Below the pieces are notes generated by a model. The model searched no databases and had not been told where the DNA came from. It saw only the letters and a program-made list of their open reading frames with translations. Positions 3,518-57,026 of a stretch of 64,000 bases of DNA are shown in pieces (position 1 is the first letter of the stretch; each line of letters begins with the position of its first letter). The stretch is from Patescibacteria group bacterium (GTDB lineage Bacteria > Patescibacteriota > Minisyncoccia > Phycocordibacterales > UBA1550). The DNA lies in NCBI GenBank assembly GCA_038063615.1, contig JBBTUT010000002.1:48746-112745 (forward strand), given 5' to 3'. Position numbers and translations under genes: made by a program.

Positions 3518-4927
3518 CTATTTCAACCCCTCCTCAAACAGCACCTTGAGCGTTCCCGGGTTTGCGGAGCCTTTGCTTGCTTTCATCCCCTGCCCGATGA
3601 AAAATTGGAAGAGGGCGGTTTTTCCGGATTTGTAATCGGCGACGATGGTTGGGTTTGCGGCGACGATTTCGGCGACGATCTTTTTGAGCGCTTCGATGTC
3701 GTTTTTCTGGATGAAATTGTGTTTTTGCGCAATCTCGTGCGGGTGCCCGCCTTCGGCGTACAAGATGGCGAGCGTGTCTTTCGCACCGCGCGAAGAGAGG
3801 TCGCCTGCTTTGATCATCGTCACGAGGTCGGCAAGCCCCGCCCCTGTCACACCACCAAGAGTCCCATTCTCCTTCATTAAGCCAGCGAGGTCAGAGGTGA
3901 TGTAGTTTTCAATAAGCGCGATCGAGGGACGGTCGCTACCCGTAGCGACCACCGCATCTTCAAAAAGCCCGCCGAGTGTTGCGTCTATGGTAAATATCTC
4001 CGCATTCTCCGGCTTCACGCCGTATTCGCGCACGAGACGCGCGCGTTTCTCCCACGGGAGCTCCGGCAGTGTCGCCGAGAGTGCTTCTTTTGAAAATTCG
4101 GGAATCTCGCTCAACTTCAATTTTGGCAAGTCAGGGTCAGGGAAATAGCGATAGTCGTGCGCGCTTTCTTTCTTGCGTTGCGAAAATGTCGCCTGTTTGT
4201 TCTCGTCCCATCCGCGCGTCTCCTGTACTATCGTTTCGCCCTTGTCCAACATCTTCGTCATTCGTTCCACCTCATATGCGATAGCGCGCTCCACCGAGCG
4301 AAATGAATTCAAGTTTTTCACCTCCACTTTCGTACCGAGCGCATCGGTTTTTGATATTGAAATATTAGCCTCGACACGCATTTCGCCTTTTTCCATATTC
4401 GCATCGGACACACCGAGTGTGCGAAGGAGAAGCTGAAGCTCGCGCGCAAAGTTTCCCGCCTCTTCCGCACTCTTGATTGTGGGTGTCGTCACGAGCTCCA
4501 TGAGCGGCACACCTGCGCGATTGAAGTCCACAAGACTTCCCTCCGAGCCCTCATGCGACGAGCTCGCCGTATCTTCTTCGAGATGCACGCGCTCAATAAC
4601 GACACCGTTCAAAGCGCCCCCCGACACGAGCGGATATTTGTACTGGCTAATCTGGTACCCCTTTGGAATGTCAGGATAAAAATAGTTCTTGCGGTCAAAC
4701 TCGGTAAAGTCCGCAAGTGTACTCCCGAGTGCCACGCCCACGCGCAAAACATGCTTCACCGCCTCGCGGTTGATTACCGGCAATGTCCCCGGATGCGCCA
4801 TACACACGGGGCAAATATTCACATTCGGCTCTGCATTGAAAGGATCATTCGCCGAATTGCAGAACATCTTCGTCTTTGTTTTCAGCTCGGCGTGGACCTC
4901 GAGACCCACGGTTAGTTTATAACTCAT
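3518..4927 (-). CDS. gatB: Asp-tRNA(Asn)/Glu-tRNA(Gln) amidotransferase subunit B
   Basis: MSYKLTVGLEVHAELKTKTKMFC...YFYPDIPKGYQISQ, with a GatB/YqeY C-terminal domain. Confidence 0.9.
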   Translation of the reverse strand: MSYKLTVGLEVHAELKTKTKMFCNSANDPFNAEPNVNICPVCMAHPGTLPVINREAVKHVLRVGVALGSTLADFTEFDRKNYFYPDIPKGYQISQYKYPLVSGGALNGVVIERVHLEEDTASSSHEGSEGSLVDFNRAGVPLMELVTTPTIKSAEEAGNFARELQLLLRTLGVSDANMEKGEMRVEANISISKTDALGTKVEVKNLNSFRSVERAIAYEVERMTKMLDKGETIVQETRGWDENKQATFSQRKKESAHDYRYFPDPDLPKLKLSEIPEFSKEALSATLPELPWEKRARLVREYGVKPENAEIFTIDATLGGLFEDAVVATGSDRPSIALIENYITSDLAGLMKENGTLGGVTGAGLADLVTMIKAGDLSSRGAKDTLAILYAEGGHPHEIAQKHNFIQKNDIEALKKIVAEIVAANPTIVADYKSGKTALFQFFIGQGMKASKGSANPGTLKVLFEEGLK

Positions 4928-5892: not shown

Positions 5893-5957
5893 ATGCGAAG
5901 TATATCATAAAATATCCCCACTCGCCCCAACCTCTCCTGTATCAAAAATTAATGCTT

Positions 5958-6001
5958 CAAAATCACCAAGTTTGACCTATAGGTCAAACTTGGTGATTTT
6001 G
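5958..6001. terminator. Perfect 20 bp stem with a 4 nt loop (caaaatcaccaagtttgacc tata ggtcaaacttggtgattttg) between hicA and the methyltransferase. Terminator-like or an operator palindrome.
   Basis: Perfect inverted repeat read directly in the sequence. There is no clean T-run after it on either strand. Confidence 0.4.
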
Positions 6002-6034
6002 AGGAAATTAATACGCCACACAAAAGTACTGTTA

Positions 6035-13429: not shown

Positions 13430-14135
13430 TATGAGAGCAAAAATAGAAACAAAAAAATATGTAATTGCCTTTGCCACCACCGCCACGGTGTTTTTTGGCG
13501 CGCTCCTCGTAAGCAACCGTTTTGAGGCACAAAGACTTGCTGAAATAAAAAATGTCGAGAGCAAAATTTCACTTGACATACTCTCCTCTGAAACACAGTT
13601 CGCACTTCTCAAGGAGTCCTCTTGCAAGGCAATCGATCACTCGACCACATTCTCAGAAGAGCTCAGTTCTCTTGCCGCGAAACTTTCATATATGGAAGAT
13701 AATCTGGGCGACAGCAATGCCGAGGTGATCAACCTCAAAAAATACTACTCGCTCCTCCAGATTAAAGACTATCTCTTGGTCGCGCAGGTCAAAGAAAAAT
13801 GCGGGGTCAAGCCCATCACCATCATTTACTTTTATTCGAATAAAGGCGACTGTACTGACTGCAAAAAAGAGGGCTATGTTTTAACAAAGCTGCGTGAAGA
13901 GTTCCCCGAGCTCCGTATCTATGCATTCGATTACAATCTCGACCTCTCGGCGGTCAAAACGATGAAGTCTATCCAAGGCGTCAGAAACACCCTCCCCGCC
14001 CTCGTCATCTGGGAAGAAAATTATTACGGTTTCAAGAGCACCGAGGATATCGAAAAGATCATTCCCCAGCTCAAAAAGCTCCGCGCCACCCGCGAAAAAG
14101 CCGCGACCGCGACGAGCACGAAGGGAAACAATTGA
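13410..14135 (+). CDS. Membrane-anchored thioredoxin-like (CxxC) protein. Alternative start MRAKIETKK at 13431.
   Basis: N-terminal TM helix, then ITIIYFYSNKGDCTDCKK ... LPALVIWEE, which resembles a thioredoxin-fold CxxC motif and cis-Pro region. Confidence 0.3.
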   Translation: MEPSGDNMRAKIETKKYVIAFATTATVFFGALLVSNRFEAQRLAEIKNVESKISLDILSSETQFALLKESSCKAIDHSTTFSEELSSLAAKLSYMEDNLGDSNAEVINLKKYYSLLQIKDYLLVAQVKEKCGVKPITIIYFYSNKGDCTDCKKEGYVLTKLREEFPELRIYAFDYNLDLSAVKTMKSIQGVRNTLPALVIWEENYYGFKSTEDIEKIIPQLKKLRATREKAATATSTKGNN

Positions 14136-14138
14136 CAT

Positions 14139-14231
14139 GTGACAATTGACCGTAGACACAAAAGCGCGCCCTATGGGCGCGCTTTTTAAGTTTGCATTGG
14201 TCAAATGTCAATTGTCACATGTCAATTGTCA
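14139..14231. repeat. 22 nt inverted repeats (caattgacatgtgacaattgacc / ggtcaattgtcacatgtcaattg) bracketing the bidirectional terminator. The right side also carries a tandem ATGTCAATTGTCA pair.
   Basis: Read directly from the sequence. The motif is shared with 1584-1663. Confidence 0.45.
14163..14188. terminator. Bidirectional rho-independent terminator (agcgcgccc tat gggcgcgct + TTTTT, with an A-run upstream) between convergent genes
   Basis: GC stem of 9 bp, 3 nt loop, and T/A runs on both sides. Confidence 0.75.
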
Positions 14232-16325: not shown

Positions 16326-16369
16326 CACCATTATCTATTCCAAGTCATGACTTGGAATAGATAATGGTG
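16326..16369. repeat. Perfect 44 nt palindrome, family P1, 22 nt upstream of the PaaX-like gene 1 start
   Basis: caccattatctattccaagtca|tgacttggaatagataatggtg is its own reverse complement. Confidence 0.8.
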
Positions 16370-16391
16370 TATAATACAAAGTAAATACACC

Positions 16392-16946
16392 ATGGACAAA
16401 TACGAAAAAGGCGAACTTGCAAAAGAGATACTGCTTGGCATTGCGGCTTGTGGTTTCATCGTCGCAATGGCGGCGATGCCTGGGCTCGGTAAAGTAGTGC
16501 CACTTTTTAAAAATTTCAAAAGGGCAAAAGACCGCCACCGGATAAATCAAGCATTCCAAAAACTTCAAAAAAGAAAGCTGGTAAACATTTATACAAAAAA
16601 TAGTACCGAAGTCGTAGAGATTACCGAAGCGGGAAAGAAAAAAGTTCTTGAATACAATCTTGGCGAGATGAGATTAAAAGTCCCAAAGAAATGGGATGGC
16701 TGGTGGAGAATCGTGATGTTCGACATTCCACAGCCAAAGAAGAAAGCACGCGACGCGGTGAGCTGGAAGATAAAAGAGCTTGGTTTGTACCCGATCCAAA
16801 AGTCAGTTTTTGTATCACCATACTTATGTAAAAATGAAATTGATTTTATTGGAGAATTTTTTGGAGTACGCGACCACATCATCTACATCAAAGCAAAAGA
16901 GATCGAGGGTGTACGCAAACTCAAAGAATATTTTAACCTTGAATGA
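16392..16946 (+). CDS. PaaX-family-like transcriptional regulator, paralog 1 (wHTH N-terminal domain plus PaaX_C-like WDGxW domain; short form)
   Basis: C-terminal KKWDGWWRIVMFDIPQPKKKARDAVSWKIKELGLYPIQKSVFVSP parallels E. coli PaaX WDGKWLLLL...QL.W.GFG.L. The N-terminal half parallels PaaX_N. It is 45% or so identical to the ORF at 47433..48017. Confidence 0.5.
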   Translation: MDKYEKGELAKEILLGIAACGFIVAMAAMPGLGKVVPLFKNFKRAKDRHRINQAFQKLQKRKLVNIYTKNSTEVVEITEAGKKKVLEYNLGEMRLKVPKKWDGWWRIVMFDIPQPKKKARDAVSWKIKELGLYPIQKSVFVSPYLCKNEIDFIGEFFGVRDHIIYIKAKEIEGVRKLKEYFNLE

Positions 16947-17009: not shown

Positions 17010-17047
17010 TGTTATCTATTTCAAGCCATGACTTGAAATAGATAACA
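17010..17047. repeat. 38 nt palindrome, family P1, one central mismatch, 63 nt downstream of the PaaX-like gene 1 stop
   Basis: tgttatctatttcaagcca|tgacttgaaatagataaca. Confidence 0.75.
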
Positions 17048-20662: not shown

Positions 20663-21114
20663 TGCCATTTTTTTATGTGCTATTCGCTGATGCAGTGATG
20701 CATCCTCGAACATGTATGCAAATTATTTTATCTACAACAATTACTCGACCCGATCGTGTATGAGTAAATCTCATCATCAATCGCGTACAATTATTGGATC
20801 ATGTCTTGTGTGAAAATTCTCTCACACGGTGTACTGTGATCTACTACTATTATCGCGCATACAAAAATCAAACACAATACTTTTTAAAAATAAAACTGTG
20901 GATAACTTTTTTTCTTTGTCGTGAAGAAAATTTTTTTGAAACAAAAAAAATTTTACATCTGCTCCACGAAATTTTAATTTCATAAATTTAATTTCGCATT
21001 CCATTTTCCAATTTCAAATTTAAACTTCCCTTTCACTGCACACGCATCCGGACCTATGGGCCCGAATGCGTGTGCAGTGAAAAAATTTCAAAACATACCA
21101 GACAAAAATTAAAT

Positions 21115-21154
21115 CTTCCGCCTTCTATGTCCTATAGGACATAGAAGGCGGAAG
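21115..21154. repeat. Perfect 18 bp stem with a 4 nt loop (cttccgccttctatgtcc tata ggacatagaaggcggaag). An imperfect 14 bp hairpin lies just upstream at 21034-21079.
   Basis: Read from the sequence. Confidence 0.7.
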
Positions 21155-21172
21155 AACTTGGAAATTAAAAAA

Positions 21173-21491: not shown

Positions 21492-22133
21492 TCAAGCTCC
21501 AATCAATTTTACCTGTTTCGTAACCTCGCGCACAACACCTTTAATGATGCCTGAAACATCCTTATTTCTAAAATCTTCGGCTATTTCCAAAGGTACTTTT
21601 TGTATCGAGTCTACTGCGGACAAAGCAACGACCCAGCTCATGATATCTTGTTCCGGATAAACATCTTGCCACCACGATATCCACGAACGCACATCCGTTT
21701 CTTTCGCAATGCACGCAAGATCGAAATAATCTTTATACTCTTCCCTCCCGCATATCGCGACAAGCTTCATTACCGTTATGTCTTTGATGCTTGCAAGCCG
21801 AAAAAAATCCGTAGAATTTACCGGCTCCAAAAGCGTATTGAACCGAGAGATGAATGATATTTTCACGCCGTCGATAACACACCACAAGGTATCCTTAGTT
21901 TCAAAAAGAATCTCTACTGTGGTTTTTTGGAAAATATCAACAAGACTCTTTTTTAAAGCAAGCGTGTCTATCGGCTTCGCGATAAAATAATCGAGGTCCA
22001 CGCTTTTTCGATGCCCGACATAAAGCGCGAGCGCTGTTCCTCCGGCAAGATAATACTCTGGATCAATATTTTCAAAAACAAGGCGCGCAACAGTACACAT
22101 GGTGTCGGTAATTGTTTCTTGGTGAAGTGTCAT
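21492..22133 (-). CDS. AbiEii/AbiGii-family nucleotidyltransferase toxin (type IV TA / abortive infection)
   Basis: YLAGGTALALYVGHRKSVDLDYF matches the AbiEii nucleotidyltransferase motif (GG.A...R.S.D.D). Confidence 0.6.
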   Translation of the reverse strand: MTLHQETITDTMCTVARLVFENIDPEYYLAGGTALALYVGHRKSVDLDYFIAKPIDTLALKKSLVDIFQKTTVEILFETKDTLWCVIDGVKISFISRFNTLLEPVNSTDFFRLASIKDITVMKLVAICGREEYKDYFDLACIAKETDVRSWISWWQDVYPEQDIMSWVVALSAVDSIQKVPLEIAEDFRNKDVSGIIKGVVREVTKQVKLIGA

Positions 22134-22363
22134 GACAAAAGAAAATTTTTGAGATAGTGATATTTCCGTGCTGGGATACTCGTCGGCTTCATTGTTTCAA
22201 ACACTTGCGTCACTTTGGCATTCCCATATTCTCGTATCGCTTTCACAAGCAAAATGAGTCCACCGTACGAGAGAATCCTCTGTATTACAAAATCCGTGGA
22301 GAGCGTGTCAATGCTTTCCACACTGATGTCCCACAAGACTTTTTGGAGATCTTGCTTGTTCAT
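22130..22363 (-). CDS. Small 77 aa partner protein, translationally coupled to the AbiEii toxin. Putative cognate antitoxin (AbiEi-like fragment).
   Basis: Its stop overlaps the toxin start by 4 nt. There is no confident domain call. Confidence 0.3.
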   Translation of the reverse strand: MNKQDLQKVLWDISVESIDTLSTDFVIQRILSYGGLILLVKAIREYGNAKVTQVFETMKPTSIPARKYHYLKNFLLS

Positions 22364-43426: not shown

Positions 43427-43502
43427 AGCGCCTTCACCATATAAGTCCCCTCAAGCACATATCCCCACTTGCGGTAGTATTCGCGGACGCCGATGCCGGA
43501 GA
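43427..43502. repeat. Displaced duplicate of the elp3 3' coding end, about 76 bp and about 88% identical to 44767..44842
   Basis: Minus-strand translation keeps the Elp3 C-terminal frame ISGIGVREYYRKWGYVLEGTYMVKAL, versus ...WGYRLEGTYMVKAL* in the intact gene. Confidence 0.7.
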
Positions 43503-43546
43503 TAGCTTTGAATACCTGATTTTAGTCTAATTCCCCCAAATAGGTA

Positions 43547-43595
43547 TATTACGGGGAGTTTGACTCCCCGTAATTGACATATTACGGGGAGTTTG
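43547..43595. promoter_or_regulatory. Direct repeat tattacggggagtttga (twice) with an internal inverted repeat (attacggggag / ctccccgtaat), upstream of the AAA+ ATPase gene
   Basis: Read from the sequence. Contains TTGACA at 43575-43580. Confidence 0.3.
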
Positions 43596-43611
43596 ATACC
43601 CTTAAAGGTAT

Positions 43612-44745
43612 ATGAGGATTCCAAGACTATATGCTGACATAGGAAGCCGTCTCCAACCAAACAAGGTCTTGGTTATCTTTGGTCCGCGTCGTGTCGGCAA
43701 AACGACCCTTATCACCGACTTTCTCTCAACATACAAAGGAAAATATCGCTTAGAATCCGGTGACGATATTCGTGCGCGTGAAGTCCTTGGATCAGAAGAT
43801 CTTTCCTTGTTGAAAGAGTATGCGGCAGGATACGACCTCATCGTAATTGATGAAGCACAGCGCATACCTAAGATTGGCTGGGGACTGAAACTGCTTGTTG
43901 ATCATATCCCGGGAATTCGCATCATTGCTACCGGCTCATCATCGTTTGAGCTTGCCGGGCAGATTGGCGAGCCACTCACCGGGCGCAAAAACACAATAAC
44001 ACTCTTCCCTATTTCTCAGCTCGAGTTGCTCGCCTATCACGGTGGGAACCGCCACGACCTCTCCGTAGAAATTACTGAGCGGCTTGTATTTGGCAGCTAT
44101 CCAGAAGTTGTCTCTACTAAAAACACAGGCGAAAAAAAAGATATTCTTGGAGAAATTGTCGGATCATACTTGCTCAAAGATATCTTGGAGCTTGACCGTA
44201 TTCGCAATACAAAAATATTAAGCGACCTCGTACGGCTTGTCGCGCTTCAAGTGGGAAATGAAGTATCTTTGAGCGAGCTCGCGACAATACTTGGAATAGA
44301 CAGGAAGACGGTCGCTCGATATCTCGACCTTCTCGAGAAATCATTCATCCTTTACAATCTACGCGGATATAGCCGTAACCTTCGCAAAGAGGTGACCAAG
44401 AAAAGCAAATACTATTTCTACGACACGGGTGTACGAAATGCGGTCATTTCAAACTTCAACGATCTTTCTCACCGCGATGACGCTGGAGCGCTGTGGGAAA
44501 ACTTTATGGTAATCGAGCGACTTAAAACGCGTTCATACAAAAACATACCTGCAAATGATCACTTTTGGCGCACATGGGATCAAAACGAAATTGACTTCGT
44601 TGAAGAGCGCGACGGAAAACTTTTTGGTTATGAATTTAAGTGGAAAAATCTAAAAGCGAAAGAACCGAAGGGTTGGCGCGAAACATATCCTGAGGCAAGC
44701 TACGAGGTAATCACTCCCGAGAATTATCTAAAAATACTCGAATAG
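43612..44745 (+). CDS. AAA+ ATPase with C-terminal DUF4143 (AAA_14 / DUF4143 family)
   Basis: VLVIFGPRRVGKTTL Walker A, LIVIDEAQRIP Walker B, and a C-terminal DUF4143-like region (FFYDTGVRNAV...). Confidence 0.75.
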   Translation: MRIPRLYADIGSRLQPNKVLVIFGPRRVGKTTLITDFLSTYKGKYRLESGDDIRAREVLGSEDLSLLKEYAAGYDLIVIDEAQRIPKIGWGLKLLVDHIPGIRIIATGSSSFELAGQIGEPLTGRKNTITLFPISQLELLAYHGGNRHDLSVEITERLVFGSYPEVVSTKNTGEKKDILGEIVGSYLLKDILELDRIRNTKILSDLVRLVALQVGNEVSLSELATILGIDRKTVARYLDLLEKSFILYNLRGYSRNLRKEVTKKSKYYFYDTGVRNAVISNFNDLSHRDDAGALWENFMVIERLKTRSYKNIPANDHFWRTWDQNEIDFVEERDGKLFGYEFKWKNLKAKEPKGWRETYPEASYEVITPENYLKILE

Positions 44746-44762: not shown

Positions 44763-46448
44763 CTACAGTGCCTTCACCATATATGTCCCCTCGAGCCGGT
44801 ATCCCCATTTGCGGTAATATTCGCGGACGCCGATGCCGGAGATGATGGCGAGTTTGGCGTAGCCGGCTTCGCGCGCGATGCGTTCTGCTTCGACGAGGAG
44901 GCGGCGGCCGAAGCCGATGTGCTGGCTTTGCGTGCCTGCGGTGCCGATTGGGGTGAGCTGCCCGTAGGTGTGGAGCTCGCGCACGAGTGCGGCGTCGCGG
45001 AGGACCTCGAGTGGTCCGCCGACGAATTCTTCGCCGTGATTGTCGGGGAGGCGCAGGCGAAGAAAAGCGGCGAGTTTGCCCTCGTTCGGCTCTTCAAAAC
45101 TAAGAAAGATCTCGCGCCCTGTTTTAGTGCGATACTCGGTCGTCGTGAGCGGAAACTTTTCCAAGTCAATGACGGCGCCACGCACTTCGCGACAGCGGAT
45201 GCATACGCAGTGCCAGTTGTGCTTTTTCATATCATTAAAAAGCCATTGGCGGAGATTTGAAATTTTGCTTCCCGCTTGAATGTAGGTCGCGGGGATGTCG
45301 CGGATGACCCGAATGATGCGCACATATTTCGGCACCTGTTTTTTTGCGCCGACGAGCACGCGAAAAAGCTCCTCGTCCGTGTACGGCTTGAACCCGCCTT
45401 CCTTCCATATTTGAAAAAGCTCACTCCCCTCGAGCACCATACACGGATACACCTTGAGCATATCGGGTTGAAAATCCTCGCCGGAAAAAAGCTCGCCAAA
45501 CATTTCGATGTCGCGCTCCACGGTCGAGCCGGGAAGATTGGGCATCATATGGTATACGACTTTGAGTCCCGCATTGCGGAGGCGCTCAGTTGCCTGTGCC
45601 ACCTGCGCAATCTTCATATCGCGTTTTGTTTGTTTGAGGACAGCATCATCAAGATGCTGAACACCAATCTCGACTTTGGTCACACCGAGCAGACGCAGTC
45701 GTTCAATTTCGTAAGTCGTAATGTAATCGGGACGCGTCTCTATTGAAAGTCCGATGATGCGCGTTCCCGCCGTTTCGTTTTCATTTTGTAATTCCGCAAG
45801 AGACTTTACACCCTTTGGTGTCTGCATGTCTTTCTGTTTTCCAAAATTGTTGCATGCGCGATAGCATTCAGCGAGAAATTCTTCCTGATATTTCGGATGA
45901 TAAAAACTCCAAGTCCCGCCGATGACGATCATCTCTATCTTGTCGGTCGCGTGTCCGTTCATCACGAGCGCAGAGAGACGGCTCGTCACTTGGTCGTACG
46001 GATCGAAGTCGTTGGCAAGGGCGCGCGCGGCGGCCGGCTCTTTTGAAAGATAGCTCTTCGGCATTTTCTCTTCGGTCGGACAATAGGTACACCGCCCCGG
46101 ACAGGGATACGGTTTGGTAAGGAGCGACACGACCGCAACGCCGGAATTGCTTCGTGTCTTTATTTTTTTCAAAACAAGCTCCGCGTCAAGATTTGGCATC
46201 TCATCCCCTGTTGCGATGACCTCTTTGTACAAGGCAAGCATTTCCGCATTGGTAGGCATTTTTGGACCCAATCCATCCTCAGAAACCGCCGTATTCGGCT
46301 CATTTTGCCCCATAGAAGCGGGTTTGTTCTGTCGAGAGGGGATGTTTTGGCGAAGCTCCAAAATACGCGCATAGAGCACCGGATTGGTGGCGATGCGCCG
46401 TTTGAGCTTGTCCAAGTCCTTTTCGGTTTTTATGTCGGTGAAAAGCAT
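44763..46448 (-). CDS. elp3: Elp3-type radical-SAM / GNAT tRNA uridine(34) acetyltransferase. Start set at MLFTDIKTEK.
   Basis: CPGRCTYCP radical SAM cluster motif, a C-terminal GNAT domain (GFGRRLLVEAERIAREAGYAKLAIISGIGVREYYRKWGY), and typical Elp3 length. Confidence 0.85.
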   Translation of the reverse strand: MLFTDIKTEKDLDKLKRRIATNPVLYARILELRQNIPSRQNKPASMGQNEPNTAVSEDGLGPKMPTNAEMLALYKEVIATGDEMPNLDAELVLKKIKTRSNSGVAVVSLLTKPYPCPGRCTYCPTEEKMPKSYLSKEPAAARALANDFDPYDQVTSRLSALVMNGHATDKIEMIVIGGTWSFYHPKYQEEFLAECYRACNNFGKQKDMQTPKGVKSLAELQNENETAGTRIIGLSIETRPDYITTYEIERLRLLGVTKVEIGVQHLDDAVLKQTKRDMKIAQVAQATERLRNAGLKVVYHMMPNLPGSTVERDIEMFGELFSGEDFQPDMLKVYPCMVLEGSELFQIWKEGGFKPYTDEELFRVLVGAKKQVPKYVRIIRVIRDIPATYIQAGSKISNLRQWLFNDMKKHNWHCVCIRCREVRGAVIDLEKFPLTTTEYRTKTGREIFLSFEEPNEGKLAAFLRLRLPDNHGEEFVGGPLEVLRDAALVRELHTYGQLTPIGTAGTQSQHIGFGRRLLVEAERIAREAGYAKLAIISGIGVREYYRKWGYRLEGTYMVKAL

Positions 46449-46456
46449 GATAAATG

Positions 46457-46550
46457 GTAGAATGTTGAATATCGAATATGGAATGTCGAATTGGATGCAA
46501 TTCAATACGGGCTTGATTCAATATTCAATATTCTACATTCGATATTCTAC
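46457..46550. repeat. Low-complexity imperfect inverted repeat of GAATAT/CGAAT-rich arms in the divergent elp3 / methyltransferase promoter region
   Basis: ggtagaatgttgaatatcgaatatggaatgtcgaattg ... caatattcaatattctacattcgatattctacc. Confidence 0.5.
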
Positions 46551-47297: not shown

Positions 47298-47343
47298 CCC
47301 CGTAACCCCTATCTCCACAACTATCTCCCCAATCTTATCTTTT

Positions 47344-47389
47344 TCTCTTCAGCCTGTTTGATACTATAGTATCAAACAGGCTGAAGAGA
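47344..47389. repeat. Perfect 46 nt palindrome, family P2, 44 nt downstream of the PaaX-like gene 2 stop
   Basis: tctcttcagcctgtttgatacta|tagtatcaaacaggctgaagaga. Confidence 0.8.
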
Positions 47390-47432
47390 AATTCAACGAG
47401 ACCTCCTCGAAACGAGTGCTCCTGCGGATAAT

Positions 47433-48017
47433 TTAAAGCTTGAATGTCTTCTTAATCTGCTCCACGCCTTCAACATCATGGGCGACAACAATACGAATAT
47501 ATTTTCGAACATCAAAACATTCTCCAACAAAATCAATCTCCTTGGTGCAAGGAAACGGCGTAATAAACACTGACTTTTGATACTGCGCACAACCAAGCTT
47601 CTTGAGGGCGAGATTGACTGCTCGACGCGCCATCTTTTTTTCTTCAGGAACATCGAACATAATTAAACGCCATGTTCCATCCCATTTTTTTTGAGGAGAT
47701 ATTTTCATCAAATCAAGCTGATTTCGCTTTGCGCGATTATACCCTAAGTCGGTAAGCGAATAATAATCATCTCCATTTTTCGTACTCTTTTTTACAAACC
47801 CTCTTTTCTCAAGCCGTGAAAATGAGCGGTGAACCTCCCATCTATCTTGAGAGTTTCGCGGAAGAAAATATTTAAAAAGTTGCACGGCGTTGGGAGCAAC
47901 GATTGCTGTTGTTAAAAGCCCAACACCAAGCAAAATATTCAGAATCATCTCCTGTCGTTCTTGTTTTTTCAAAATCATCTCCTGCTTCTTTTGTTTTTCT
48001 TTTTCTTGTTTTTTCAT
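47433..48017 (-). CDS. PaaX-family-like transcriptional regulator, paralog 2, with a K/E/Q-rich N-terminal extension
   Basis: SFSRLEKRGFVKKSTKNGDDYYSLTDLG (PaaX_N-like wHTH) and KKWDGTWRLIMFDVPEEKKMARRAVNLALKKLGCAQYQKSVFITP (PaaX_C-like). Homologous to the ORF at 16392..16946. Confidence 0.5.
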   Translation of the reverse strand: MKKQEKEKQKKQEMILKKQERQEMILNILLGVGLLTTAIVAPNAVQLFKYFLPRNSQDRWEVHRSFSRLEKRGFVKKSTKNGDDYYSLTDLGYNRAKRNQLDLMKISPQKKWDGTWRLIMFDVPEEKKMARRAVNLALKKLGCAQYQKSVFITPFPCTKEIDFVGECFDVRKYIRIVVAHDVEGVEQIKKTFKL

Positions 48018-48026
48018 ATTAAATCA

Positions 48027-48068
48027 TTTACAGCCTGTTTGATACTATAGTATCAAACAGGCTGTAAA
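48027..48068. repeat. Perfect 42 nt palindrome, family P2, 10 nt upstream of the PaaX-like gene 2 start
   Basis: tttacagcctgtttgatacta|tagtatcaaacaggctgtaaa. The 34 nt core is identical to the 47344..47389 copy. Confidence 0.8.
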
Positions 48069-48178
48069 TGTAAACAGGGATGAACAGGGAATTAAGGAAC
48101 TTACAAAAATCTACTGATTCGTCTATTTCGCTGACAAACTCACAAAAGTGACCCGTACAATTAAGGTCGAGCAACTTC

Positions 48179-49564: not shown

Positions 49565-49723
49565 AAAGACCCGCTGTGTAAAAATTTTTGTAACGAAACT
49601 TTCAATTTTCTCGGCGAGGCGAAGAGAAAATTCTAAAGAATATCGGGATATTTTGAAGAATTTTATCGAAGCCATAGCCGAAAATTTAAAGTTGTAGTAA
49701 AAATTTTTACACAGCGGGTCTTT
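49565..49723. repeat. 25 bp perfect inverted repeats (aaagacccgctgtgtaaaaattttt / aaaaatttttacacagcgggtcttt) separated by 109 nt. The left arm abuts the LTD-gene start codon and the right arm overlaps the stop of the upstream ATPase gene.
   Basis: Read from the sequence. Confidence 0.7.
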
Positions 49724-53303: not shown

Positions 53304-53347
53304 GCCCATTATCTATTTCAAGTCATGACTTGAAATAGATAATGGGC
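53304..53347. repeat. Perfect 44 nt palindrome, family P1, third copy, far from the PaaX-like genes
   Basis: gcccattatctatttcaagtca|tgacttgaaatagataatgggc. Confidence 0.8.
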
Positions 53348-55547: not shown

Positions 55548-55617
55548 CGATGGAGGCACTCGAACATGGGACCTCGTCGTTATCAGGGCGACGGGAGTGC
55601 CCGCATCCGTCGCCCGC
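55548..55617 (-). pseudogene. tRNA-Ile-like pseudo-copy D: D-arm 3' part, a 28 nt GC hairpin insert (GGCGACGGATGCGGGCACTCCCGTCGCC), anticodon loop CTGATAA, a degenerate T-arm and a 3' acceptor strand
   Basis: Aligned by eye to the intact tRNA-Ile. The T-stem strands are not complementary and there is no 5' acceptor strand. Confidence 0.4.
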
Positions 55618-55644
55618 TCTATCTAAATTAAGTTCATTGTGCGC

Positions 55645-55670
55645 GATCCAGGACTCGAACATGGGAAACT
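55645..55670 (-). pseudogene. Partial tRNA-Ile copy: T-arm plus 3' acceptor strand (CCCATGTTCGAGTCCTGGATCGCGCA), 17 nt after the intact gene
   Basis: Near-identical to the 3' 26 nt of the tRNA-Ile, with one T-stem mismatch. Confidence 0.5.
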
Positions 55671-55686
55671 TATCTGCTTTTCAAAG

Positions 55687-55760
55687 TGCGCGATCCAGGA
55701 CTCGAACCTGGGACCTCGTCATTATCAGTGACGCGCTCTAACCACCTGAGCTAATCGCGC
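55687..55760 (-). tRNA. tRNA-Ile (anticodon GAU), 74 nt, no encoded CCA
   Basis: GCGCGATTAGCTCAGGTGGTTAGAGCGCGTCACTGATAATGACGAGGTCCCAGGTTCGAGTCCTGGATCGCGCA. A 7 bp acceptor stem, GTGG D-loop, anticodon loop CTGATAA and TTCGAGT T-loop. Confidence 0.85.
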
Positions 55761-55785
55761 ACTTTGAAAACCAATTTTAAAAACC

Positions 55786-55855
55786 TCGTCGTGATTAGGG
55801 CGACGGGAGTGCCCGGCATCCGTCGCCCGCTCTAACCACCTGAGCTAATCGCGCT
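55786..55855 (-). pseudogene. tRNA-Ile-like pseudo-copy A: an intact 5' acceptor strand and D-arm, then a 29 nt GC hairpin insert and an altered anticodon region (CTAATCA), with no T-arm
   Basis: GCGCGATTAGCTCAGGTGGTTAGAGCG is identical to the intact gene's first 27 nt, followed by GGCGACGGATGCCGGGCACTCCCGTCGCC CTAATCA CGACGAGGT. Confidence 0.4.
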
Positions 55856-55917
55856 TTTCAGCACTTGGAGAACATACCATAAAACACCCCTTTACGCAAC
55901 GATTTCGTTAAAAAAGC

Positions 55918-56310: not shown

Positions 56311-56382
56311 CCACCTCCGTTAATAGGATAGTAAAAAAACAATCTCCGTCGATTAAAGCACGGCACCGTGCAAAAGTCAAAC

Positions 56383-56410
56383 AAAAAACCCGCCATATGG
56401 CGGGTTTTTT
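56383..56410. terminator. Strong bidirectional rho-independent terminator (cccgcc atat ggcggg with A and T runs) about 255 nt past the 16S 3' end
   Basis: Read from the sequence. Confidence 0.75.
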
Positions 56411-57026
56411 GTTTGAAAAATTGCATGTATGTAATATCTAAAAATTATTTGTTGAGTATTCTTTCTTTTGTTCCGTTCTTCGCCTTGCTTTGCCGTCCGT
56501 TTTAAAAAAACAGGCGATTAAGCAAGGTCTTGCGTACCGGTAACCCTTCCGGTAAGGGAGCCCCTTTTTGAGATGGGAGGGCCTTCATCTTAATTCCTTG
56601 CGGAAAAAACCGACCAATTCAGCGTATCGCAACCACGAGGGCGTACGATACAACATTATATTTTGAATTGATTCACGACCAGCTTCCGCTAGCCGTGCCT
56701 TGTTACGACTTAGTCCTTGTTACCAAGCTTACCTTAGGTCCACGCGAGGTGGAACTTCGGGTACTCTCGGCTCCCCTGACTTGACGGGCGGTGAGTACAA
56801 GACTTGAGAACGTATTCACCGCAGTATAGCTGACCTGCGATTACTAGCGATTCCAACTTCATGAGGTCGAGTTTCAGCCCTCAATCCGAACTGGGGCCAC
56901 CTTTATTAGGATTAGCTCAGGGTTACCCCGTCGCGACCCGTTGTAGTGGCCATTGTATCAAGTGTGCAGCCCAGGGTATCAAAGGGACATGCTGACCTGG
57001 CGTCATCCTCTCCTTCCTCCCCCGCC

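What the first reader, a model, noticed from the sequence alone, without database searches (positions are those of the whole stretch)
47344..48068. Second PaaX-like paralog bracketed by its own, different 42-46 bp perfect palindrome pair (family P2)
The paralog at 47433..48017 is about 45% identical to the 16392 protein. It is flanked by the palindromes tctcttCAGCCTGTTTGATACTATAGTATCAAACAGGCTGaagaga (44 nt past its stop) and tttaCAGCCTG...CAGGCTGtaaa (10 nt before its ATG). The two copies share an identical 34 nt core.

Two paralogs each paired with their own private palindrome looks like co-evolving regulator/operator pairs, or a family of non-autonomous palindrome-ended elements carrying a DNA-binding passenger. 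I am not aware of this arrangement being described. The C-terminal WDGxW domain is also reminiscent of the Cas2/VapD ferredoxin-like fold, but there is no CRISPR context here.
Basis: partly seen in the sequence, partly recalled or inferred. Interest (0 to 1): 0.75.

Follow-up and report, generated by a model that had tools for sequence, protein, structure and literature searches.

The report
Mini-PaaX repressor flanked by private palindromes
A small DNA-binding regulator gene in a Candidatus Yonathbacteria (candidate phyla radiation) genome is bracketed on both sides by its own long perfect palindrome, and this gene-plus-palindrome module recurs, with matching changes in protein and DNA, across hundreds of relatives, which most likely marks a large uncharacterised family of self-regulating repressors.

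Summary
A minus-strand gene (47433..48017; likely start 47978, 181 aa) is flanked by perfect palindromes of 46 bp (48025-48070) and 50 bp (47342-47391) that share an identical 34-nt core. The protein is a truncated PaaX: winged helix plus the Cas2-like PaaX_M domain, with no effector domain. It is 39% (not 45%) identical to the paralog at 16392.

The same palindrome-gene-palindrome module appears at nearly all ~40 homolog loci examined in Patescibacteria. Each palindrome has an invariant centre (TACTA|TAGTA), a variable hinge, and a distal block (positions ~9-20) specific to the protein's recognition-helix type. Half-site centres lie about 29 bp apart, like the E. coli PaaX operator (TGATTC-N27-GAATCA). 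Two ~90%-identical same-genome paralogs with different arms differ mainly in the helix-turn-helix. Solo cognate copies lie elsewhere, mostly close to gene starts.

Best reading: autoregulated repressors with private long dyad operators. They are not terminators, not CRISPR, and not recently mobile.

Two things remain unexplained. Nearly every module has a second copy after the stop codon. The arms evolve mirror-symmetrically (51 double changes against 9.7 expected). I rate this a new variant of a known kind, of moderate interest.

The parts
47433..48017 (-). Mini-PaaX gene 'P2': PaaX-type winged helix plus Cas2-like PaaX_M domain, no PaaX_C. The ORF from the first ATG is 194 aa. The probable start is ATG 47978 (181 aa).
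   Evidence: ORF. Pfam PF20803 at 68.6 bits (cut-off 24) and TIGR02277 PaaX E 1e-11 over residues 62-178. AF2 model pLDDT 82; best full-length fold matches are E. coli PaaX 8a39, Rv0674 3kfw and 3l09. P0001 is 100% identical and 181 aa.
48025..48070 (.). Upstream copy of palindrome P2 (46 bp perfect, zero loop; core 48031-48064). Putative operator overlapping the gene's promoter.
   Evidence: The layout of centre TACTA|TAGTA, hinge and distal GCCT-type block is shared with orthologous modules.
47342..47391 (.). Downstream copy of palindrome P2 (50 bp perfect; core 47350-47383), 41 nt after the stop codon, between convergent genes. Role not established.
   Evidence: No T-run and no -10-like hexamer follows it. 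As RNA it would fold at -38 kcal/mol. A downstream copy is present in nearly all modules whatever the neighbour's orientation.
48047..48074 (-). Promoter-like site: TTTACA, 16 nt, TG-n-TACTAT. The -10-like hexamer lies at the palindrome centre.
   Evidence: Consensus scan. This is a pattern match only, not evidence of function.
16392..16946 (+). Paralog 'P1' (184 aa), 39% identical to P2, with the same domain architecture.
16326..16369 (.). P1 upstream palindrome (44 bp perfect; centre TCATGA). Its right arm fills the spacer between a -35-like ATGACT at the centre and a TATAAT at 16370-16375.
17010..17047 (.). P1 downstream palindrome (38 bp, 1 mismatch), 63 nt after the stop codon, between convergent genes.
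53304..53347 (.). Solo P1 palindrome (44 bp perfect; 95% identical to the upstream P1 copy). It lies 14 nt after the rsmI-like stop codon and about 53 nt before the ATG of a small membrane protein / DUF4015 gene pair. It is absent from the orthologous spacer in L003 and L006.
5956..6003 (.). Solo CTATAG-centred perfect palindrome of another family, 63 nt upstream of a histidine-methyltransferase-like gene. Its cognate paralog is not in the window.
21114..21155 (.). Solo CTATAG-centred perfect palindrome. It resembles the upstream palindrome of the L010 module (27 of 34 positions). Its cognate paralog is not in the window.

Best explanation
The gene encodes a truncated PaaX-type transcriptional repressor: an N-terminal winged helix, then the Cas2-like middle domain that serves as the dimerisation module in PaaX, and no C-terminal effector domain.

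I infer that a dimer binds the long palindrome through two widely spaced half-sites. These are the family-specific blocks about 9-20 bp from the dyad centre, roughly 29 bp centre to centre. The shared AT-rich centre TACTA|TAGTA would act as a common hinge, a common contact, or a -10-like element.

The upstream copy overlaps the gene's own core promoter, so the protein would repress itself. Solo copies of the same palindrome in front of a few other genes would form a small regulon. Paralogs avoid cross-talk because the recognition helix and the distal block have diverged together.

Shown here: domain architecture, fold, the recurrent module, the palindrome layout, helix/arm co-variation, and promoter proximity. 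Inferred only: actual binding, repression, the dimer geometry, and the job of the second copy after the stop codon. I guess that copy is a second operator for looping or a transcriptional roadblock, and where the next gene is tandem, its operator.
For: Protein:
- PF20803 PaaX_M at 68.6 and 63.6 bits; TIGR02277 PaaX aligned across the winged helix and middle domain.
- AF2 pLDDT 82, with PaaX structures as the best full-length fold matches.

Known PaaX behaviour:
- E. coli PaaX represses its own promoter by hindering RNA polymerase binding, and binds TGATTC-N27-GAATCA (review PMC9493321).

Recurrence:
- Both-sided palindromes occur at nearly all of 27 genome loci and in 16 further loci of six other proteins, down to 35% protein identity.
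- In about 160 kb of loci, CTATAG-type palindromes lie almost only at these genes.

Layout:
- Invariant centre, variable hinge at positions 6-8, and a group-specific distal block at positions 9-20, in four recognition-helix groups.

Co-variation:
- L014 and L016 are same-genome paralogs with 17 differences in 181 aa. Seven fall in residues 45-65, the helix-turn-helix; an eye count of 8 of 18 gave hypergeometric p of about 3e-4 to 8e-4 and was not recomputed for 7 of 17. Their arms are unrelated.
- L012 and L016 share both helix and arms.

Promoter overlap:
- A strong -10-like hexamer follows the gene-ward arm in 9 of 25 upstream copies against 5 of 65 controls (p = 0.002).
- Promoter-like sites overlap both window modules.
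- -10-like hexamers in this genome end 0-9 nt before many ATGs.

Solo copies:
- They keep centre and distal block.
- In tandem spacers they lie nearer the start-facing gene in about 7 of 10 cases.
- There are roughly 2-3 solos per module.

Stability:
- Identical genomic context in 19 and 13 contigs.
Against: - No binding data exist; every protein-DNA pairing rests on adjacency and co-variation, both confounded by shared descent. The overall Mantel correlation is weak (r = 0.11, p = 0.08; partial r = 0.16, p = 0.01).
- A simple operator model does not explain why arms stay perfectly symmetric at positions that vary freely: 51 double changes against 9.7 expected.
- It does not explain a second copy after the stop codon when the next gene is convergent (8 of 18 modules).
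- The centre is shared by paralogs in one genome, so specificity must rest on the distal blocks alone.
- Solo-copy positions are not conserved between genera. The P1 solo is in front of different genes in the window and in L164, and is absent in L003/L006.
- About 80% of random intergenic sites would also face a gene start, so that statistic is weak.
- No effector domain or ligand is evident.
- The invariant Asp at the Cas2 catalytic position is not needed by this model.
Confidence: 0.65

Rival explanations
1. A REPIN/RAYT-like or otherwise selfish system. The palindromes would be miniature mobile or recombining DNA. The flanked gene would encode the factor that moves or maintains them, using the Cas2-like domain as a nuclease on extruded hairpins or cruciforms. 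Solo copies would be transposed copies or scars left after excision.
For: - The gene is flanked by its own palindrome family, as RAYT genes are flanked by their REPs (PMC3116915, PMC3337134).
- The solo P1 copy is a 44-bp unit absent from the orthologous spacer in L003/L006, so it was copied in whole.
- Module positions differ between genera.
- One syntenic slot (PGK / HIT-RecJ) holds different paralog types in opposite orientation.
- A strain-level indel breakpoint lies at a palindrome edge.
- Mirror-symmetric evolution points to hairpin formation.
- The Asp at the Cas2 catalytic position is invariant here, whereas E. coli PaaX lacks it.
Against: - There is no HUH/Y1 or other transposase or recombinase domain; the protein is robustly PaaX-like.
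- Only 2-3 copies per family, not tens to hundreds.
- No target-site duplications were seen.
- Identical contexts in all 19 and 13 contigs that carry identical proteins.
- None found in viral contigs.
- Distal blocks are conserved between genera far beyond flanking intergenic DNA, and they co-vary with the helix-turn-helix, which fits recognition by a winged helix.
- The L072 'empty site' test failed.
Confidence: 0.12
2. The palindromes act mainly as RNA hairpins at the 5' and 3' ends of the transcript. They would serve as a stability element, an RNase III site or a factor-independent stop, possibly bound by the ferredoxin-fold domain. Their DNA-level symmetry would be secondary.
For: - Very stable predicted hairpins (-28 to -38 kcal/mol, z of -9 to -12).
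- Compensated changes maintain pairing.
- The downstream copy sits just after the stop codon in nearly every module.
- Cas2 relatives include RNases (general knowledge; 3exc hit).
Against: - Symmetry runs through the centre. Central 4-mers are almost always self-complementary in several different versions (TATA, CATG, GATC, CTAG), which a hairpin loop does not require.
- L013 and L020 keep perfect distal half-sites with an unpaired asymmetric inner 12-mer.
- Upstream copies overlap promoter-like elements, so only half of the palindrome may be transcribed.
- Solo copies lie in front of genes.
- There are no T-runs, while the genome has ordinary GC-rich terminators with T-runs elsewhere.
Confidence: 0.1
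3. Cassette exchange. A circle carrying the gene and one palindrome would integrate by recombination into a solo cognate palindrome. That would produce the two flanking copies, and excision would leave a solo copy (integron/attC-like logic without a dedicated integrase).
For: - A single crossover predicts exactly a gene flanked by two copies.
- Solo copies exist.
- Different paralogs occupy the same slot in L155-160 and L164.
- Three palindrome families are found at the VTT/MBL locus.
Against: - The both-sided architecture is retained down to 35% identity, so it is maintained rather than a transient integration product.
- In L013 the two copies are in inverted, not direct, orientation.
- No integrase is associated.
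- Contexts are stable at population level.
- No occupied/empty pair was found.
Confidence: 0.06
4. Ordinary intrinsic terminators or chance palindromes.
For: They are intergenic and form stable hairpins. The terminator scan lists the upstream copy because an A/T-rich tail follows it.
Against: - Shuffles give no such palindromes.
- No T-runs; AT-rich stems of 20-30 bp.
- The genome's real terminator-like hairpins are short, GC-rich and flanked by A/T runs (14160, 20538, 21168, 21379, 56377).
- Copies occur upstream of starts.
- The association with one gene family is nearly exclusive.
Confidence: 0.02

Closest known systems
PaaX, the phenylacetyl-CoA-responsive repressor of E. coli and Pseudomonas (PDB 8a39, 3l09; TIGR02277)
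   Same: - Winged helix followed by the Cas2-like middle (dimerisation) domain.
- Best sequence and fold match.
- PaaX represses its own promoter.
- It binds a long dyad with distal half-sites, TGATTC-N27-GAATCA (PMC9493321), comparable to the roughly 29-bp half-site spacing here.
   Different: - About 181 aa instead of about 316, with no C-terminal effector domain.
- Scores 44.8 bits against the 264.55-bit equivalog cut-off.
- No paa genes nearby.
- The inner part of the operator is itself a perfect palindrome with a conserved centre.
- A second copy follows the stop codon.
- Several paralogs per small genome.
- The Cas2-type Asp is retained (E. coli PaaX has Ser-Glu there).
Cas2 (CRISPR adaptation protein; PF09827, TIGR01573)
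   Same: - Ferredoxin-like beta-alpha-beta start with Asp at the end of beta1 and a 'Q.SVF' strand.
- Weak hits (E 1e-4 to 3e-6) restricted to residues ~103-140.
- The C-terminal half superposes on Cas2 chains.
- Some database records name these proteins Cas2.
   Different: - No CRISPR array in the window; cas1 was not searched for.
- Fused to a winged helix.
- Better matched by PaaX_M.
- The Cas2 names in the databases are probably over-annotation.
REPIN-RAYT systems (PMC3116915, PMC3337134)
   Same: A single-copy gene flanked by its own family of palindromic repeats, with further copies elsewhere, vertical inheritance, and each gene family paired with its own repeat family.
   Different: - RAYTs are HUH/Y1 transposases, whereas this protein is a PaaX-type winged-helix protein.
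- REPs are imperfect, 20-40 nt, and present in tens to hundreds of copies, often at gene ends.
- Here the palindromes are 34-60 bp perfect dyads, 2-3 per family, and mostly near gene starts.
Autoregulated repressors with paired operators that act by DNA looping (for example gal or lac; comparison from general knowledge)
   Same: Two copies of a dyad operator bracket the regulated promoter or gene. Self-repression is the expected outcome.
   Different: - Here the two sites bracket the whole regulator gene (609-681 bp apart) and are near-identical long perfect palindromes.
- Tetramerisation or looping is untested.

Membership tests
PaaX family (TIGR02277 / PF07848 + PF20803 + PF08223) | Central Cas2-like PaaX_M domain | tested here: met
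   PF20803 at 68.6 bits (P2) and 63.6 bits (P1) against a cut-off of 24.
PaaX family (TIGR02277 / PF07848 + PF20803 + PF08223) | N-terminal PaaX-type winged helix | tested here: inconclusive
   PF07848 gives only E 0.15, below cut-off. However, TIGR02277 aligns residues 62-178 to model positions 37-150, E. coli PaaX aligns over helix 3 and the wing, and the AF2 model shows helix, wing hairpin and helix, with PaaX as the best fold match.
PaaX family (TIGR02277 / PF07848 + PF20803 + PF08223) | C-terminal helical effector (acyl-CoA-sensing) domain PaaX_C, and a full-length equivalog score | tested here: not met
   The protein ends after the middle domain (181-194 aa against 316). There is no PF08223 hit. 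TIGR02277 scores 44.8 bits against a cut-off of 264.55.
PaaX family (TIGR02277 / PF07848 + PF20803 + PF08223) | Genomic association with the paa catabolic operon | tested here: not met
   Neighbours are a methyltransferase, an LTD/PKD protein, a TrwB-like ATPase, Nudix and a MazG-like protein. Other loci show pilus, glycogen or glycolysis genes.
PaaX family (TIGR02277 / PF07848 + PF20803 + PF08223) | Binds a dyad operator with distal half-sites and represses its own promoter | not testable with these tools
   In silico only: distal conserved blocks about 29 bp apart and promoter overlap. Binding needs an experiment.
Cas2 (CRISPR-Cas adaptation) | Cas2 ferredoxin fold with catalytic Asp at the end of beta1 | tested here: met
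   The invariant MFD aligns with the VYDV of 3exc. TIGR01573 scores 24.7 bits against a cut-off of 24.5 for P2 and 22.6 for P1. PADLOC Cas2 models give E 3e-6. Only the first ~40 residues of the domain match.
Cas2 (CRISPR-Cas adaptation) | Encoded with cas1 next to a CRISPR array | tested here: not met
   No repeat-spacer array appears in the repeat, tandem-repeat or Rfam searches of the window. The L014 repeat is a plain 78-nt tandem repeat. No cas1 appears among the called neighbour genes of loci L149-L164; window ORFs were not screened for cas1.
REPIN-RAYT | Flanked gene encodes an HUH/Y1 (IS200/IS605-like) transposase | tested here: not met
   Pfam, NCBIfam, PADLOC and PHROGs give only PaaX, Cas2 and winged-helix hits. 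No HUH motif is present in the alignment.
REPIN-RAYT | Repeat family present in many copies per genome | tested here: not met
   The 64-kb window holds three P1 copies and two P2 copies. The palindrome-first scan gives roughly 2-3 solos per module. Whole genomes were not available.
REPIN-RAYT | Gene flanked on both sides by its cognate palindromic repeat | tested here: met
Intrinsic (Rho-independent) terminator | Short GC-rich stem-loop followed by a T-run, located at gene 3' ends | tested here: not met
   The stems are AT-rich, 20-25 bp, without a T-run, and copies occur upstream of starts.
Insertion sequence / MITE | Terminal inverted repeats with target-site duplication, variable location among close strains | tested here: not met
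   No duplications were seen at copy borders. Contexts are identical in 19 and 13 contigs. Only genus-level differences exist.

The most novel reading that the evidence does not exclude
The modules may be more than repressor-operator pairs. They could be a domesticated palindrome-maintenance or mobility system. In it, a winged helix would target a Cas2-like nuclease (invariant catalytic-position Asp) to extruded cruciforms or hairpins of its own palindrome family. Processing and templated repair at these sites would keep the arms perfectly symmetric, copy whole palindromes into new promoter regions, and let paralog cassettes swap between palindrome-marked slots. This would be a non-HUH analogue of REPIN-RAYT and a free-living relative of the Cas2 lineage acting on palindromic repeats outside CRISPR.
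Probability: 0.12. Interest if true: 0.85.

Novelty: new variant of a known kind. Interest (0 to 1): 0.55.

Why it matters
Candidate phyla radiation bacteria have tiny genomes, cannot be cultured easily, and almost nothing is known about how they regulate genes.

This analysis defines a large family (488 clusters at E <= 1e-30 and 2683 at E <= 1e-10) of effector-less mini-PaaX proteins. Each member's probable binding site can be read directly next to the gene. Natural helix/half-site pairs therefore give a ready-made recognition code, and solo copies give candidate regulons: pilus, glycogen, DNA-repair and envelope genes.

It also corrects database names ('Cas2', 'PaaX phenylacetic acid regulator') for these proteins.

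The mirror-symmetric evolution of 40-60 bp perfect palindromes, and the conserved second copy behind the gene, are unexplained. They could expose either a new regulatory geometry or a DNA-level symmetrising process.

Tried and rejected
- **CRISPR link.** The 27-nt palindromic repeat next to the L014 homolog is a plain 78-nt tandem repeat with identical 'spacers'. The window has no arrays.
- **Empty site.** L072 and L144 carry a solo L003-like palindrome after a 440-aa ORF that I hoped was murC. It is not, so I found no occupied/empty pair.
- **Transmembrane N-terminus.** The hydrophobic stretch aligns with the first helix of the PaaX winged helix and is modelled as a helix. I did not pursue it as a membrane anchor.
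- **Equal 681-nt spacing as a constraint.** Other modules range from about 609 to 681 nt with no helical phasing.
- **'TGAC' in outer arms as a -35 box paired with the central TACTAT.** The spacing is only about 10 nt, so I rejected it.
- **Start-facing position of solos as proof of operator function.** About 80% of random intergenic sites would also face a start. Only the shorter distance to the start-facing gene remains as weak support.
- **Phage origin.** No relatives were found in IMG/VR, and PHROGs gives only a weak generic regulator hit.
- **Global Mantel test of arm against protein distance.** It is weak. The group-wise and paralog-pair comparisons are more informative.
- **Population microevolution.** Contigs with identical proteins had identical palindromes, so they gave no information.
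- **Literature.** Searches for PaaX with Cas2-like, and PaaX with candidate phyla radiation, found nothing; perfect palindromes with Patescibacteria returned one unrelated paper on LexA.
Full report
**1. The observation**

The region reads as described. A minus-strand ORF at 47433..48017 is bracketed by two copies of CAGCCTGTTTGATACTATAGTATCAAACAGGCTG, at 47350-47383 and 48031-48064. No matches are expected by chance. Each copy extends to a longer perfect zero-loop palindrome, 50 bp at 47342-47391 and 46 bp at 48025-48070. The extensions differ between the copies, yet each is self-complementary.

Shuffled windows give no palindromes of this size. The real window has eight long zero-loop palindromes:
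- two P2 copies;
- three P1 copies (16326-16369, 17010-17047, and a solo at 53304-53347);
- two other CTATAG-centred solos (5956-6003 and 21114-21155);
- one ordinary-looking GC-rich terminator after the 16S rRNA gene (56377-56416).

Only two paralogs are encoded in the window. They are 39% identical, not 45%. A 30-nt tandem duplication at 47938-47999 lengthens the 5' end of the ORF. Database gene calls and homolog lengths point to ATG 47978 as the start, giving 181 aa.

**2. The protein**

Both paralogs match Pfam PF20803, 'PaaX protein central Cas2-like domain', well above threshold. TIGR02277 PaaX aligns across the winged helix and the middle domain. Cas2 models match weakly, and only over the first beta-alpha-beta. 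There is no PaaX C-terminal domain.

The AF2 model (pLDDT 82) shows a helix, a recognition helix, a wing hairpin, a linker helix and then a ferredoxin-like domain. Its best full-length structural matches are E. coli PaaX (8a39), Rv0674 (3kfw) and a Jannaschia PaaX-like protein (3l09). The C-terminal half also superposes on Cas2 chains.

In a 24-sequence alignment, WDGxW, MFD, K, R and QKSVF are invariant. The Asp aligns with the beta1 Asp of a Cas2 structure; E. coli PaaX has Ser-Glu at that position.

The family is large: 488 50%-identity clusters at E <= 1e-30 and 2683 at E <= 1e-10. Named members come from Yonathbacteria, Paceibacterota and other Patescibacteria. None was found in viral contigs.

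**3. The module is general**

In 27 loci from reference genomes, CTATAG-type long palindromes lie almost exclusively on the immediate flanks of the homolog. The upstream copy ends 0-100 nt before the ATG. The downstream copy starts 7-122 nt after the stop codon. Where only one perfect copy was seen, a degenerate second copy was usually found. Only L010 and L014 lack a downstream copy.

The same holds for six further proteins in 16 loci. One of these is a true P1 ortholog (L164) with the same TCAAGTCATGACTTGA centre, both flanks and a solo 8 kb away. The architecture persists down to about 35% protein identity.

The downstream copy is present whether the next gene is convergent (8 loci) or tandem (10 loci). 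It therefore belongs to the module.

**4. Anatomy of the palindrome**

I grouped modules by recognition-helix sequence and aligned all half-arms. Every group shows the same three parts:
- an invariant centre TACTA|TAGTA (positions 1-5 from the dyad);
- a hinge at positions 6-8 that varies freely;
- a group-specific block at about positions 9-20.

| Recognition helix | Distal block |
|---|---|
| W-E-x-[HK]-[RK]-S (includes window P2) | C.GCCT.T |
| W-[KN]-I-K-Q-S-F-V | TGACTatGTATA |
| W-K-I-K-R-S | TATCTACtTATA |
| W-R-I-R-R-S-A-D | TCCAAT |

Half-site centres are thus about 29 bp apart. The E. coli PaaX operator is TGATTC-N27-GAATCA, with centres 33 bp apart, and PaaX represses its own promoter (review PMC9493321).

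L013 and L020 keep perfect distal half-sites around an asymmetric inner 12-mer. This fits half-site recognition rather than an obligatory hairpin.

**5. Co-variation**

L014 and L016 are paralogs in one genome with 17 differences in 181 residues. Seven fall in residues 45-65, the helix-turn-helix. An earlier eye count of 8 of 18 gave a hypergeometric p of about 3e-4 to 8e-4; I did not recompute it for 7 of 17. Their palindrome arms are unrelated. L012 and L016 share both the helix and the arms.

A global Mantel test is weak (r = 0.11, p = 0.08). The partial correlation of arm distance with the N-terminal domain, given the C-terminal domain, is r = 0.16, p = 0.01. Shared descent confounds all of this, so I treat it as supportive and not proof.

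**6. Promoter proximity**

Promoter-like sites overlap the upstream copies in both window modules:
- P1: ATGACT, 17 nt, TATAAT, with the right arm as spacer;
- P2: TTTACA, 16 nt, TG-n-TACTAT, with the -10 at the centre.

In the distant subfamily the centre reads TTGCNA, followed after 17-18 nt by TATAAT, TATTAT or TAATAT. Across modules, a strong -10-like hexamer follows the gene-ward arm of 9 of 25 upstream copies, against 5 of 65 control positions (p = 0.002).

In this genome, -10-like hexamers often end 0-9 nt before start codons. Leaders are therefore short, and a palindrome ending 1-46 nt before the ATG must cover the core promoter.

**7. Solo copies**

A protein-independent scan of metagenomes for the 16-mer TGGTACTATAGTACCA returned 122 matches. 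Of these, 23 are long palindromes, and only 6 lie next to a homolog. Solos therefore outnumber modules by roughly 2-3 to 1.

All solos are intergenic, and in 13 of 17 cases a gene start faces them within 8-150 nt. About 80% of random intergenic sites would also face a start, so only the shorter distance to the start-facing gene counts, and only weakly.

Genes behind solos include UvrD, a PriA-like helicase, dUTPase, a VTT/DedA and metallo-beta-lactamase divergent pair, a histidine methyltransferase, and a small membrane protein with DUF4015.

The VTT/MBL locus carries three different palindrome families in three genomes. One of them shares its inner 22-nt core with the palindrome of a paralog module on another contig of the same genome, with two substitutions forming one mirrored change; the distal arms differ. 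Solos keep the centre and the distal block.

**8. Mobility**

Between genera, module positions differ. P2 orthologs in L003 and L006 lie between murC and rsmI, while in the window the NTP-transferase and rsmI genes are adjacent and the module is about 6 kb away. P1-like genes sit in glycogen, pilus or glycolysis neighbourhoods. The PGK / HIT-RecJ slot holds a P2-like gene in one lineage and a P1-like gene, inverted, in another. The window's solo P1 is absent from the orthologous spacer in L003 and L006.

Within populations, however, identical proteins always have the same context, in 19 and 13 contigs. I saw no target duplications, no transposase and no viral copies. I conclude that rearrangement at or near palindromes happens on long time scales, but this is not an active mobile element.

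**9. What stays unexplained**

Across 24 same-family copy pairs (497 mirrored position pairs), 51 positions differ on both arms. In 49 of those, both copies remain complementary. Independence predicts 9.7 (Fisher p = 2e-38; the pairs are not fully independent). This includes hinge positions that are not conserved. Symmetry also runs through the centre in several versions (TATA, CATG, GATC, CTAG).

A dimer-binding site alone does not predict this. Intrastrand pairing, or templated 'quasipalindrome correction' during replication, would; that is my inference from general knowledge.

The function of the copy behind the stop codon is also open. It has no T-run, and only 1 of 20 downstream copies is followed by a -10-like hexamer. 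It would fold into a -38 kcal/mol RNA hairpin. The genome's ordinary terminators look quite different.

**10. Verdict**

The most likely explanation (about 0.65) is a family of effector-less mini-PaaX repressors. Each would repress itself and a few other genes through a private long dyad operator. Specificity would be encoded in a recognition helix / distal half-site pair, and a shared central element would be common to the paralogs.

Rivals:
- a REPIN-RAYT-like maintenance or mobility system using the Cas2-like domain (about 0.12);
- a mainly RNA-level hairpin function (about 0.10);
- cassette exchange (about 0.06);
- ordinary terminators (about 0.02).

Relative to what is known, this is a new variant of the PaaX kind of regulator. 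It fails the PaaX equivalog test (no effector domain, no paa context) and the Cas2 test (no CRISPR array; cas1 was not searched for). My literature searches found no prior description.

Noticed in passing
window 47938-47999: A 30-nt tandem duplication (2.1 copies, 85% matches) inside the 5' end of the P2 gene duplicates the peptide QEMILKKQER. It explains the unusually long N-terminus of the 194-aa ORF.
   Followed up: partly
window 49565-49589 and 49699-49723: A perfect 25-nt inverted repeat with 109 nt between the arms lies between the stop codon of the TrwB/TraD-like gene and the probable true start of the LTD/PKD protein (an internal Met followed by a signal-peptide-like stretch). It is a different kind of dyad from P1 and P2.
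   Followed up: no
window 43427-43503 and 44767-44843; 43526-43596: A 77-nt direct repeat (90%) brackets an ATPase-like ORF (43612-44745; not run through a family search) and duplicates the 3' end of a 580-aa minus-strand ORF (44763..46505) that I guessed to be ELP3-like radical SAM but did not run through a family search. An imperfect 34-nt-arm palindrome sits just upstream of the ATPase-like ORF. It looks like an insertion with a duplicated target.
   Followed up: no
window, upstream regions of 61 ORFs: -10-like hexamers (TATACT, TAGTAT, TATAAT, TATAGT) are enriched upstream of genes and often end only 0-9 nt before the ATG. This suggests that many mRNAs in this organism are leaderless or have very short leaders.
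   Followed up: partly
window 55558-55860: Several mutually similar tRNA-like segments (repeat families D5, D11, D15, D19) lie next to the 16S rRNA gene. ARAGORN and Rfam call only one tRNA (tRNA-Ile, 55686-55760).
   Followed up: no
window 21492-22363: An AbiEii-type nucleotidyltransferase toxin gene (21492-22133) has an overlapping small upstream ORF (22130-22363). This is probably an AbiE toxin-antitoxin pair. The solo palindrome at 21114-21155 lies 336 nt beyond its 3' end.
   Followed up: no
window 14128-14229, 14200-14231 and 1576-1605: Repeated ACAATTGACATGTGACAATTGAC-type motifs form a 30-nt inverted repeat with a 42-nt spacer. A related copy lies 12.6 kb away. This may be another regulator's site.
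   Followed up: no
L155-L160 (around 3850-4000): Strains with identical PaaX-like protein differ by a ~300-bp indel (an 89-aa ORF). Its breakpoint coincides with the outer edge of the upstream palindrome, and sequence beyond the palindrome is unrelated between the two variants.
   Followed up: partly
L155-L160 versus L164 (10001-10552): The syntenic slot between PGK/TIM and HIT-RecJ-RNaseH-ComEC holds a P2-like paralog in one lineage. In another lineage it holds a P1-like paralog (72% to window P1, with P1-type palindromes) in the opposite orientation.
   Followed up: partly
L014 4581-4652; L100 1716-1755; L164 18118-18157: The VTT/DedA and metallo-beta-lactamase locus carries a long palindrome in three genomes, and each belongs to a different family. 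L014's 72-76-bp palindrome shares the core AACTGWAGTTATAACTWCAGTT with the L161 module of the same genome. In L014 and L100 a non-palindromic GGTACTAT lies 9-12 nt upstream of the MBL start codon.
   Followed up: partly
L014 3652-3834: Three copies of a 78-nt tandem repeat, each containing a 27-nt palindrome, lie directly downstream of the homolog that lacks a downstream palindrome copy. It is not a CRISPR array.
   Followed up: yes
L013 2950-2995 and 3580-3625; L020 600-660: These are imperfect palindromes with perfect distal half-sites and an asymmetric inner 12-mer. The two copies are in inverted orientation in L013 but in direct orientation in the ortholog L020.
   Followed up: partly
L149-L154 and L163: Some modules sit inside type IV pilus gene clusters, for example T2SSE ATPase, module, 607-aa protein, T2SSF, pilin. 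The downstream palindrome then lies 68 nt before the next pilus-cluster gene. In L163 a solo copy lies next to an rve integrase gene.
   Followed up: no
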